Shown piece after piece: positions 16,321-17,321 of a DNA stretch of 64,000 nt. The notes beneath the pieces were generated by a model, which made no database searches, was not told where the DNA came from, and saw only the letters and a program-made list of their open reading frames with translations. Positions within the stretch are counted from its first letter, which is position 1; each line of letters starts with the position of its first letter. Source of the stretch: a virus; IMG/VR virus record IMGVR_UViG_3300030098_003955; one strand, given 5' to 3'. The position numbers were made by a program, and so were the translations under genes.

Positions 16321-17292
16321 ATGAAAGTTTACGCAGTTGATTGGGGTTATAAAGAAGGCAAGACAGTTTTCTTTGACGGGGTTAAAGCAACCTCTAAGGA
16401 ACCAGTGCTTGCCAGTGGTGATATTATTGCTACTGAAAATATGCCTCACCATAAGAAAGTTGAATTTCATCACAAGGGAGTGAAGGTTCTTACCTGCTCC
16501 ACCAACATGACAGCTGAAAGACGAAGACAGCTGAATTTGGAAAAAGACGATGAGACAGACGCTGAGATTATCTATAACGAGTATTTTGACTGGAAGGACG
16601 GAATATCCAACTTCAAGTTTAGAGAATTCGTTTATGACATTGAGCTTGAGCAGTTGAGCTATCAAGTCAAGGTTCGCAGAGAAGCTGTTGAAGCTCGTAA
16701 AAAGCTCAAGCAAAGAGTCAGCCTTGATCCGATTTTGAGGAATATACTTGATGATGATGTCAAGGAGTCCAAGAATTATGTCAACCGACTCGAAACTAAG
16801 TTGAAGCATAGGCTTAAAAACTTTGAAATCTACAACGAATGGCTTGCAGACATCAATGGTGTCGGCGTTGCTAGTTGTGCTGAGTTGATTTCAATCATTA
16901 AGGACATCAAGCGATTTGATACAGTTTCTAAACTATGGGCTTACTTTGGTCTTGATGTTCGTAATGGCAAGGCTCCTAAAAGAACTAAGGGTCAGCTTGC
17001 AAATTGGTCGCAGAGAGGTCGCTCACTTGTATTGAACGACATTGTTTCCAATGGCTTCAAAATGAACGGAGCCGAAAGAGTTGATGACAATGGAGAGGTC
17101 ACGAAGGATGCGAGCCTGTGGCGATCTCGGTATGACGAGTACAAGCAAATGGAACTCGACAAGAACGAGGATCGTGAAGAGGACGAGAAGCTCTCTAACG
17201 GCCATATGGACAAGAGAGCTATGCGACGAACTGGAAAACAGTTTCTCAAAGAGCTTTGGGTTTACTGGAATCAGCTAGAGAAAACGCAGTAG
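16321..17292 (+). CDS. tasR: TasR-like RNA-guided nuclease (RuvC/DEDD + coiled coil + Nop domain; IS110-related)
   Basis: N-terminal AVDW..TENM..KDDETDA (D-E-D-D); WLADINGVG...DIKRF.TVSKLWAYFGL; APKR.KG...WS; GH..KRA.R...K.FLKELW; no IS110 catalytic SG loop after GL; guide-like unit at its 3' end. Confidence 0.8.
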   Translation: MKVYAVDWGYKEGKTVFFDGVKATSKEPVLASGDIIATENMPHHKKVEFHHKGVKVLTCSTNMTAERRRQLNLEKDDETDAEIIYNEYFDWKDGISNFKFREFVYDIELEQLSYQVKVRREAVEARKKLKQRVSLDPILRNILDDDVKESKNYVNRLETKLKHRLKNFEIYNEWLADINGVGVASCAELISIIKDIKRFDTVSKLWAYFGLDVRNGKAPKRTKGQLANWSQRGRSLVLNDIVSNGFKMNGAERVDDNGEVTKDASLWRSRYDEYKQMELDKNEDREEDEKLSNGHMDKRAMRRTGKQFLKELWVYWNQLEKTQ

Positions 17293-17321
17293 ACTTTGGA
17301 TTACACGCAGATCAGGCGTTT
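17282..17321 (-). ncRNA. single TIGR-like unit overlapping the tasR stop codon
   Basis: + strand AAACGCA-gtagactt-TGGATTACA-cgcagatc-AGGCGTTT; 6-bp closing stem. Confidence 0.7.

What the first reader, a model, noticed from the sequence alone, without database searches (positions are those of the whole stretch)
17282..17321. Solo guide unit overlapping the tasR stop codon, antisense
SEEN: AAACGCA-gtagactt-TGGATTACA-cgcagatc-AGGCGTTT has the same 8+9+8 grammar, the same orientation as the main array and a perfect 6-bp stem; the tasR TAG (17290-17292) lies inside a spacer. This physically links the array grammar to the effector gene. INFERENCE: a relic of an ancestral adjacent array, a unit inserted at the effector locus, or an antisense/autoregulatory guide.
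Basis: partly seen in the sequence, partly recalled or inferred. Interest (0 to 1): 0.72.

Follow-up and report, generated by a model that had tools for sequence, protein, structure and literature searches.

The report
Lone guide-RNA gene behind tasR
The 40-base motif at the end of the tasR gene is a real single copy of the phage's two-spacer TIGR guide-RNA unit, on the opposite strand with a promoter-like site of its own, so it is a new arrangement of a system first described in 2025-26, not a new kind of system.

Summary
Observation confirmed. Window 17281-17322 (minus strand) reads stem GAAACGC, box C CCU, spacer A GAUCUGCG, loop UGUAAUCCA, spacer B AAGUCUAC, box D UG, stem GCGUUUU. This is the grammar of the roughly 23-unit stem-loop TIGR array at 3130-4566 (minus).

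- **Model score:** a covariance model built only from array units scores it 17.9 bits (E about 0.04), within the range of the weakest true units.
- **Chance:** a strict grammar scan finds it, against 0.01-0.06 hits expected per shuffled window.
- **Effector:** ORF 16321-17292 (+) is TasR (E 8e-38 to PDB 9MTY). The unit is antisense to it, and the TAG stop lies in spacer B.

New here:
- A sigma-70-like promoter (TTGACA-16-TAAAAT, 11 of 12) sits on the minus strand, with its predicted start on the unit's first stem base.
- tasR, the unit and this promoter form one 1.04-kb block that is missing from tasR-less relatives.
- Four more dispersed units exist, and one shows spacer and stem replacement in a relative.

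Against function: unusual 8+8 spacers, CCU instead of CCA/CCG, one haplotype with a broken box D, one with a weakened -10, no target found and no RNA data. The unit is absent from TasR relatives at about 60% identity.

Verdict: most likely a promoter-driven solo tigRNA gene, a new variant of a known kind. This scan earlier reported a similar solo guide in another phage.

The parts
17281..17322 (-). Solo stem-loop tigRNA unit: GAAACGC-CU-GAUCUGCG-UGUAAUCCA-AAGUCUAC-U-GCGUUUU
   Evidence: Covariance model R1: 17.9 bits on the minus strand. Grammar scan hit with a 7-bp stem and 8+9+8 spacing. Shuffle expectation 0.01-0.06.
17316..17322 (-). 5' half of the enclosing stem. C17316 is the first C of box C (CCU = 17316-17314) and pairs with G17287.
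   Evidence: Read from the sequence. The same C:G closing pair occurs in 20 of 23 array units.
17306..17313 (-). Spacer A, GAUCUGCG (8 nt)
   Evidence: Register from the model alignment. Invariant in all 5 haplotypes.
17297..17305 (-). Loop repeat UGUAAUCCA (box D UG, 4 nt, box C CCA)
   Evidence: Fits the array consensus UGNNNNCC[AG]. Its interior positions vary between haplotypes.
17289..17296 (-). Spacer B, AAGUCUAC (8 nt). It contains the complement of the tasR stop codon TAG (17290-17292).
   Evidence: Invariant in all 5 haplotypes.
17281..17288 (-). Box D U (17288) and G (17287), plus the 3' half of the stem. It overlaps the last tasR codons AAA ACG CAG.
   Evidence: Haplotype L027 carries G17287 changed to U.
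17328..17355 (-). Sigma-70-like promoter: -35 TTGACA (17355-17350), 16-nt spacer, -10 TAAAAT (17333-17328). The predicted start is A17321, the first A of the stem (second base of the unit, after the G17322-U17281 wobble pair).
   Evidence: 11 of 12 matches. Only 3 sites this good in the window on both strands, against 1.9 expected by chance. Sequence.
16321..17292 (+). tasR (323 aa): RuvC-Nop effector
   Evidence: phmmer E 8e-38 over the full length to PDB 9MTY, the TaTasR structure. The RuvC residues D (VDW), E (TENMP) and D (EKxDxxD) are conserved.
16313..17348 (.). Accessory block of about 1.04 kb (tasR, solo unit and the -10 of its promoter), present here and absent from tasR-less relatives
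   Evidence: In L030-L032 the Lar-like gene and orf69 overlap directly.
3130..4566 (-). Main stem-loop TIGR array, about 23 units with a period of about 52. It is the reference for the grammar.
   Evidence: Covariation in the enclosing stems: 35 cells changed on both sides, reached by 0 of 500 shuffles.
5360..5404 (+). Another dispersed unit, directly behind a phage promoter-like motif (5334-5355)
   Evidence: 21.8 bits. Motif, sequence.
21706..21810 (+). Two units directly behind tRNA-Arg (21627-21699)
   Evidence: 14.3 and 18.2 bits. tRNA. Both units are conserved in L026.
21163..21200 (+). Weaker unit with a 4-bp stem, behind terminator 21127-21158
   Evidence: Read by eye. Its L026 counterpart scores 19.7 bits and has different spacers and a different stem.

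Best explanation
This is a stand-alone, promoter-driven tigRNA gene of the stem-loop TIGR type, placed tail-to-tail with tasR so that its last 12 bases overlap the end of the tasR reading frame.

Proposed mechanism:
1. Host RNA polymerase starts at about A17321 on the minus strand, from the TTGACA-16-TAAAAT promoter.
2. The first 41-42 nt of the transcript fold into the unit: a 6-7 bp stem closed by the box C/box D C:G pair, two 8-nt spacers and a 9-nt UG...CCA loop.
3. A TasR dimer binds the two box C/D sites, as in the TaTasR structure.
4. The two spacers pair with opposite strands of a contiguous 16-bp target, predicted as 5'-AAGTCTACCGCAGATC-3'.
5. The RuvC domains, whose D/E/D residues are intact, cut that target.

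The unit travels with tasR as a minimal effector-plus-one-guide block. The 23-unit array 12 kb away and four other dispersed units supply further guides.

Shown here: the grammar match and its non-randomness, the orientation, the promoter-like site and its register, TasR identity, and the shared presence or absence with tasR. Inferred: transcription, 3' end formation, loading into TasR, and the target.
For: 1. Grammar and score. The covariance model built only from array units gives 17.9 bits (E 0.039), similar to the true array units at 4522 (19.3 bits) and 4068 (18.5 bits). The strict grammar scan gives only 2 non-array hits, against 0.01-0.06 expected.
2. Conformity to the published architecture. 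Box D UG and box C CCA flank 8-12 nt spacers, the loop is 9 nt, and variable palindromic stems are conserved only next to the boxes (PMC12045711 sections 8-9; Xu 2026). The array stems covary.
3. Promoter. An 11-of-12 site sits on the correct strand, and its -10 ends 7 nt before the first A of the stem. There are only 3 such sites in 128 kb of strand, with 1.9 expected, so landing in this register by chance is about 1e-4.
4. Effector. TasR matches 9MTY at E 8e-38, and its catalytic D/E/D residues are conserved.
5. Linked inheritance. tasR, the unit and the promoter are present or absent together relative to L030-L032.
6. Conservation. The unit is kept in relatives down to 93% TasR identity, at 19.8-20.1 bits. 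Across 5 haplotypes both spacers are invariant, and 3 of the 5 changes fall in the interior of the loop.
7. Other dispersed units in the same orientation logic. One follows a phage promoter motif, two follow a tRNA, and one has its spacers and stem replaced with compensation in L026.
8. Precedent. SpTasH uses 8+8 spacers, and intragenic tigRNAs at the 3' end of tas are reported.
Against: - There are no RNA data.
- The 5' box C is CCU. The array has CCA or CCG, and CCU in only one unit, at 4095.
- The 8+8 spacers are a minority form beside the 9+9 norm.
- The widespread L001-type haplotype changes the -10 from TAAAAT to TGAAAT, losing the key A at position 2. Haplotype L027 changes the box D G to U, which breaks the closing pair.
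- With only 5 haplotypes, the absence of spacer changes is not statistically significant.
- No terminator follows the unit on the minus strand, and the CUU processing motif of Xu 2026 is absent.
- The unit is absent from TasR relatives at about 60% identity.
- The host is unknown, so applying the sigma-70 consensus is an assumption.
Confidence: 0.55

Rival explanations
1. A decaying or neutral solo unit. It was carried in with tasR or copied from the array, still looks intact, but is no longer used as a guide. The promoter-like site would be fortuitous or would serve another purpose.
For: - Non-canonical CCU box C and 8+8 spacers.
- The L027 haplotype breaks the box D G, and the L001-type haplotype weakens the -10.
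- No target was found.
- The unit is absent from more distant tasR loci.
- Its sequence divergence (2 of 40 between the window and L001) is no lower than that of its flanks.
Against: - Stem, boxes, loop and spacers are intact in 4 of 5 haplotypes, across about 11% divergence in the flanking intergenic sequence.
- The exact register of an 11-of-12 promoter is hard to get by chance.
- Other dispersed units in the genome are maintained, and one is actively turned over.
Confidence: 0.22
2. Primarily an antisense regulator of tasR. Convergent transcription from the minus-strand promoter runs into the tasR 3' end, with no terminator behind the unit. It lowers TasR output by transcriptional interference or by pairing with the tasR mRNA 3' end. 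The guide-like fold would be secondary, or would serve to titrate TasR.
For: - The promoter faces tasR.
- No intrinsic terminator lies on the minus strand within tasR.
- The unit overlaps the stop codon by 12 nt.
- Xu 2026 suggests that guides lying inside tas may link tigRNA maturation to Tas translation.
Against: - A simple antisense promoter would not need a full tigRNA grammar.
- The spacers do not match tasR or its promoter region under the tandem-spacer rule.
- There are no expression data.
Confidence: 0.12
3. A sense-strand element of the tasR mRNA: either a 3' stabilising or terminator hairpin, or a tigRNA processed from the tasR transcript.
For: - The AAACGC/GCGUUU stem also forms on the plus strand.
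- tigRNAs at the 3' end of tas genes are reported.
Against: - The model gives no plus-strand match at E below 10.
- The plus-strand reading lacks the UG...CCA boxes.
- A 28-nt loop with no U-tract is not a terminator, and none is called there.
- The fold energy is unremarkable, z = -0.9.
Confidence: 0.05
4. A chance resemblance.
For: The element is short, the model E-value is only 0.04, and the grammar scanner was written after the unit had been seen.
Against: - Shuffle expectation is 0.01-0.06 per window.
- Position next to tasR, the orientation and the promoter register are each independent of the grammar.
- The unit is conserved in relatives and scores higher there.
Confidence: 0.04

Closest known systems
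Stem-loop TIGR arrays and tigRNAs (Faure et al. 2025, PMC12045711; Xu et al. 2026, bioRxiv 10.64898/2026.09.09.750476)
   Same: - Two short spacers, each preceded by box C and followed by box D UG.
- A 9-nt loop between the spacers.
- A variable palindromic stem enclosing the unit.
- A Tas effector encoded alongside.
- Units can lie at the 3' end of tas, or inside it.
   Different: - It is a single unit, not a tandem array.
- It lies on the strand opposite to tasR, an orientation the preprint does not mention.
- It has its own promoter-like site in exact register.
- The CUU processing motif is not present.
- Here TasR appears catalytically intact, whereas the characterised stem-loop TasRs are dead.
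TaTasR with dual-repeat 36-nt tigRNA (PDB 9MTY)
   Same: The effector is homologous over its full length (E 8e-38). The loop has the same form: UG, four nucleotides, CCA.
   Different: The edge is a variable stem rather than a conserved 8-12 nt edge repeat. The spacers are 8+8 rather than 9+9.
Solo promoter-driven TIGR guide in a soil phage with TasA
   Same: A lone hairpin guide with its own promoter, away from the main array, in a phage.
   Different: That guide is 12.8 kb from a nuclease-free TasA and lies between baseplate genes. This one overlaps the stop codon of a nuclease-type TasR and is inherited with it. I did not re-examine that note.
IS110/IS1111 bridge (seeker) RNA
   Same: One guide RNA gene is physically attached to one RuvC/Nop-type effector gene and moves with it. 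It carries two guide segments flanked by box C/D-like motifs (Discussion).
   Different: No Tnp catalytic-serine domain and no transposon ends were seen. The guide is about 42 nt with two 8-nt spacers, not a two-loop RNA of about 150-200 nt. Pfam sees only a weak Transposase_20 match.

Membership tests
Stem-loop TIGR tigRNA unit | Box D 'UG' immediately 3' of each spacer | tested here: met
   UG opens the loop (17305-17304) and follows spacer B (17288-17287).
Stem-loop TIGR tigRNA unit | Box C 'CCA' immediately 5' of each spacer | tested here: inconclusive
   The loop ends in CCA. The 5' edge has CCU. Array units use CCA (12 units), CCG (8) and CCU (1, at 4095).
Stem-loop TIGR tigRNA unit | Two spacers of 8-12 nt separated by a loop of about 9 nt | tested here: met
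   8 + 9 + 8. Four array units share the 8+8 form.
Stem-loop TIGR tigRNA unit | A palindromic stem enclosing the unit, closed by the box C/D C:G pair | tested here: met
   6 Watson-Crick pairs plus 1 G-U pair. Covariation of the equivalent stems in the array is shown.
Stem-loop TIGR tigRNA unit | Scores as a member under a profile built from bona fide units of the same locus | tested here: met
   17.9 bits, E 0.039, within the range of the weakest array units. Orthologues score 19.8-20.1 bits.
Stem-loop TIGR tigRNA unit | Tandem repetition (an array) | tested here: not met
   A single unit. There is no second unit within 4 kb on either side. It is therefore a solo tigRNA gene, not an array.
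Stem-loop TIGR tigRNA unit | CUU motif at the base of the stem, marking the processing site (Xu 2026) | tested here: not met
   The 3' flank reads GCGUUUUCUCUAG, with no CUU at the stem base.
Stem-loop TIGR tigRNA unit | Transcribed, processed and bound by the Tas protein | not testable with these tools
Only a promoter-like site is available.
TasR (RuvC-Nop TIGR effector) | Full-length homology to a characterised TasR, with a Nop-type C-terminal half | tested here: met
   phmmer E 8e-38 to 9MTY over residues 17-336. There is also a weaker match to TasH chains. 9MTY is identified as the TasR RNP.
TasR (RuvC-Nop TIGR effector) | Intact RuvC acidic residues (TaTasR D11 and partners) | tested here: inconclusive
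   The D11 equivalent (VDW), the E of TENMP and the D of EKxDxxD are conserved in the clade. The fourth acidic residue was not placed on a structure.
IS110-family bridge-RNA recombinase | C-terminal Tnp domain with catalytic serine, plus a long bridge RNA in the flank | tested here: not met
   Only a weak Transposase_20 match over 50 residues. The best solved relative is TasR, not an IS110 recombinase. The flank holds a 42-nt tigRNA-type unit.

The most novel reading that the evidence does not exclude
tasR and its convergent solo guide form a minimal, self-contained and mobile TIGR-Tas module: one effector, one guide and one guide promoter in 1.04 kb. It would move between hypervariable sites of T4-like marine phages. 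The tail-to-tail overlap would couple guide and effector output, because convergent transcription and a guide perfectly complementary to the tasR mRNA 3' end would give built-in autoregulation. Together with the spacer and stem replacement seen at another solo site, this would make dispersed solo units the birthplace of new guides. That would be the first handle on how TIGR spacers are renewed, which the 2025 paper lists as an open question.
Probability: 0.15. Interest if true: 0.75.

Novelty: new variant of a known kind. Interest (0 to 1): 0.55.

Why it matters
TIGR-Tas systems were described only in 2025-26. Their natural targets, the way guides are transcribed and the way spacers are renewed are all stated open questions.

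The 2026 preprint says that sequence alone could not tell whether guides lying inside tas genes have promoters of their own. This locus is a natural case where one guide is isolated from any array. It has a strong promoter-like site whose predicted start coincides with the guide's first stem base, and it is inherited with the effector gene. That makes it a compact test object (about 1.1 kb) for promoter-driven tigRNA biogenesis, and for asking whether antisense placement tunes TasR.

The neighbouring observation may say more about how guides change. A solo unit elsewhere in the genome keeps its loop but has different spacers and a compensated stem in a relative whose surrounding DNA is 94% identical.

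Tried and rejected
1. **Own genome and nearest record.** The window's assembly is not held. The nearest record, G001, is a 50% fragment without this region, so a whole-genome model scan was not possible.
3. **Self-targets.** No site in the window matches the solo spacers or the other dispersed units' spacers in either tandem geometry with up to 3 mismatches. No unit (23 array units and 5 dispersed) has a target with up to 2 mismatches in 258 kb of window plus loci.
4. **Homing idea.** I tested whether the solo guide targets the empty Lar/orf69 junction of tasR-less relatives. There is no match with up to 3 mismatches in L030-L033. Those relatives are too diverged for this to be a strong test.
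5. **Host target.** The predicted 16-mer gave 54 scattered hits across unrelated taxa among 185,579 species genomes. That is at or below random expectation, so it is noise.
6. **More haplotypes.** A flank-anchored scan of viral contigs found nothing. The metagenome scan gave only haplotypes already known.
7. **Close isolates.** No DNA match in the phage collection. By protein there are only distant matches covering about half of TasR, in actinophages and one Microcystis phage.
8. **Thermodynamics.** The unit's fold is not unusually stable (z = -0.9). This is expected for a structure with a long internal loop and was not used as evidence.
9. **Tandem repeat finders.** TRF missed the main array entirely.
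10. **Error of mine.** My first Pfam query for orf69 was out of frame and was redone. It still has no family.

Full report
**What is at the coordinates**

The ORF ending at the TAG at 17290-17292 lies on the plus strand. Its most likely start is the ATG at 16321, giving 323 aa. It is a TasR: phmmer aligns it over its full length to PDB 9MTY at E 8e-38, and Faure et al. 2025 name 9MTY as the TasR RNP model. Pfam sees only a weak Transposase_20 match. The RuvC residues equivalent to TaTasR D11 (VDW), the E of TENMP and the D of EKxDxxD are conserved across the clade. The nuclease therefore looks intact, although I did not place the fourth acidic residue.

**The reference grammar**

The ORF-free stretch at about 3130-4566 holds about 23 units with a period of about 52. 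TRF misses them, but motif parsing shows them clearly.

On the minus strand each unit reads: variable stem, CC[A/G], spacer (mostly 9 nt, range 8-10), UGNNNNCC[A/G] (consensus UGAUACCCA), spacer, UG, complementary stem. This matches the published description of box D UG and box C CCA, a 9-nt loop and variable palindromic stems in stem-loop TIGR arrays.

In the 23-unit alignment (A1) the enclosing stem is supported by covariation. Cells changed on both sides number 35, against 13.9 in shuffles (0 of 500 shuffles reach the observed value). All slid registers are worse.

The minus-strand reading is preferred for two reasons:
- Only that reading gives UG, four nucleotides, CCA with the invariant bases U, G, C, C.
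- Context agrees. A relative has its array directly upstream of tasR and co-oriented with it (L005/L006), and the dispersed units described below follow a promoter motif and a tRNA in that same orientation.

**Does the solo unit belong?**

A covariance model (R1) built only from the array units finds 17280-17322 on the minus strand at 17.9 bits, E 0.039 for the whole window with filters off. That is close to the genuine array units at 4522 (19.3 bits) and 4068 (18.5 bits).

The alignment gives stem GAAACGC, CU, GAUCUGCG, UGUAAUCCA, AAGUCUAC, U, stem GCGUUUU.

A strict grammar scanner returns 15 array units and only two other sites in 64 kb: this one (7-bp stem, 8+9+8) and 21765-21809. In 300 dinucleotide-preserving shuffles of the non-array sequence the mean was 0.063 hits, and 0.01 with stems of at least 7 bp. 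I wrote the scanner after seeing the unit, so these figures are somewhat generous. About 120 kb of related loci gave no non-array hit of 17.9 bits or more, except the orthologous unit.

The 8+9+8 spacing is a minority form, 4 of the 15 strictly parsed array units; the norm is 9+9+9. The CCU box C is shared with only one array unit, at 4095.

**New observation 1: a promoter in exact register**

On the minus strand TTGACA (17355-17350), a 16-nt spacer and TAAAAT (17333-17328) match the sigma-70 consensus at 11 of 12 positions. The -10 ends 7 nt before A17321, the first A of the stem. Only three sites this good exist in the window on both strands, with 1.9 expected from shuffles. One falling within a few bases of the unit's 5' end, on the right strand, has a chance of about 1e-4.

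Two caveats apply. The host is unknown. The common L001-type haplotype has TGAAAT, which loses the critical A.

**New observation 2: the unit is inherited with tasR**

Relatives found through the downstream cytidylyltransferase gene (L030-L032, 77-80% identity for that protein) lack tasR. In them the Lar-like gene and orf69 overlap directly, and the model finds no unit there.

So 16313-17348 is one accessory block: tasR, the unit and the -10 of its promoter. This TasR also has the shortest C-terminal tail of its clade, and its final codons and stop are supplied by the unit. That fits a unit that arrived with, or was built onto, the 3' end of the gene.

TasR relatives at about 60% identity sit in other contexts. 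Their arrays lie upstream or kilobases away, and none has a unit at the 3' end. The 'relic of an adjacent array' reading therefore has no support.

**Variation**

Five haplotypes were recovered from marine metagenomes.
- Both spacers are invariant in all five.
- Three of the five substitutions lie in the four interior loop positions, which also vary within the array.
- One turns a C-G stem pair into U-G.
- One (L027, a single contig) changes the box D G to U, which breaks the closing pair; it also causes the Q-to-K change at the last TasR residue.

With so few haplotypes, the lack of spacer change is not significant, and divergence inside the unit is no lower than in its flanks.

**Other dispersed units**

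The model also finds:
- 5360-5404 (+), 21.8 bits. It lies directly behind one of three exact copies of a phage motif, TTGACA-N7-TATACTGAT.
- 21706-21750 and 21765-21810 (+). These lie directly behind tRNA-Arg and are conserved in L026 with a U-G to C-G stem change.
- A weaker unit at 21163-21200 (+). In L026 it has the same loop but different spacers and a compensated stem, inside DNA that is otherwise 94% identical.

Solo units are thus a recurrent, maintained and evolving feature of this T4-like phage lineage (rIIB and contigs of about 150 kb). That raises the prior that the tasR-linked unit is used.

**Function**

From the published 8-nt 3' overhangs I derive the target geometry as spacer B followed by the reverse complement of spacer A. 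The predicted target is 5'-AAGTCTACCGCAGATC-3'.

Nothing matches it in the window, in 258 kb of held loci or at the empty site of tasR-less relatives. Its 54 matches in species genomes are scattered noise. No terminator follows the unit on the minus strand, so transcription may continue antisense into tasR. An autoregulatory role is possible but untested.

**Comparison with what is known**

TIGR-Tas, stem-loop tigRNAs and tigRNAs inside or at the 3' end of tas genes are published. Xu et al. 2026 leave open whether such guides have their own promoters, and they do not mention antisense units.

The present case is therefore a new variant of a known kind. The features that set it apart are its solo state, its antisense overlap with the stop codon, its promoter register and its co-inheritance with tasR.

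**Verdict**

- Observation: confirmed.
- Probabilities: functional promoter-driven solo tigRNA gene 0.55; neutral or decaying unit 0.22; mainly an antisense regulator 0.12; sense-strand element 0.05; chance 0.04.

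Noticed in passing
window 4921-4942, 5334-5355, 22054-22075 (+); variant at 3105-3126 (+): Three exact copies of TTGACA-N7-TATACTGAT lie upstream of plus-strand genes, so this is probably a phage-specific promoter. A copy with 2 mismatches at 3105 points into the main TIGR array on the strand opposite to the guides. An 11-of-12 sigma-70 site at 2668-2697 (+) points the same way. Antisense transcription of the array is therefore possible.
   Followed up: partly
window 5360-5404 (+): A tigRNA-like unit (21.8 bits) sits immediately behind the 5334 promoter motif. Its 3' stem overlaps the GGAG ribosome-binding site of the next ORF, so this would be a guide in a 5' leader.
   Followed up: partly
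window 21627-21810 (+): tRNA-Arg(TCT) is followed within 7 nt by two tigRNA-like units, with TATGTATATAAT between them. The pair is conserved in L026, where a stem U-G is changed to C-G.
   Followed up: partly
window 21163-21200 (+) versus L026 14839-14884: A solo unit behind a strong terminator keeps the loop TGAAGCCCA. Both spacers and the stem differ between two phages whose flanks are 94% identical (stem ATGC/GCAT versus GCGC/GCGC). This looks like replacement of a guide cassette.
   Followed up: partly
window 16313-17348 versus L030-L032 at about 3620-3640: tasR with its solo guide is an insertion/deletion of about 1.04 kb. In tasR-less relatives the Lar-like restriction-alleviation gene and orf69 overlap by about 14 nt.
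   Followed up: yes
window 3130-4566 (-): The linkers between array units carry a conserved TACATACAA-like motif. In several places the 3' stem half of one unit can also pair with the 5' stem half of the next unit across this motif, which gives an alternative fold between units. Its role, possibly in processing, is unknown.
   Followed up: no
L002 5359-6673; L007 118-919: Arrays of TasR relatives at about 60% identity contain units on both strands (L002: six on minus and one on plus; L007: one on minus and two on plus). They lie 4-7 kb from tasR.
   Followed up: no
window 15373-16312 and 17691-18131: tasR is embedded among sugar-nucleotide genes (phosphomannomutase-like HAD, cytidylyltransferase) and a Lar-like restriction-alleviation gene. 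Relatives carry a mannose-6-phosphate isomerase nearby.
   Followed up: no
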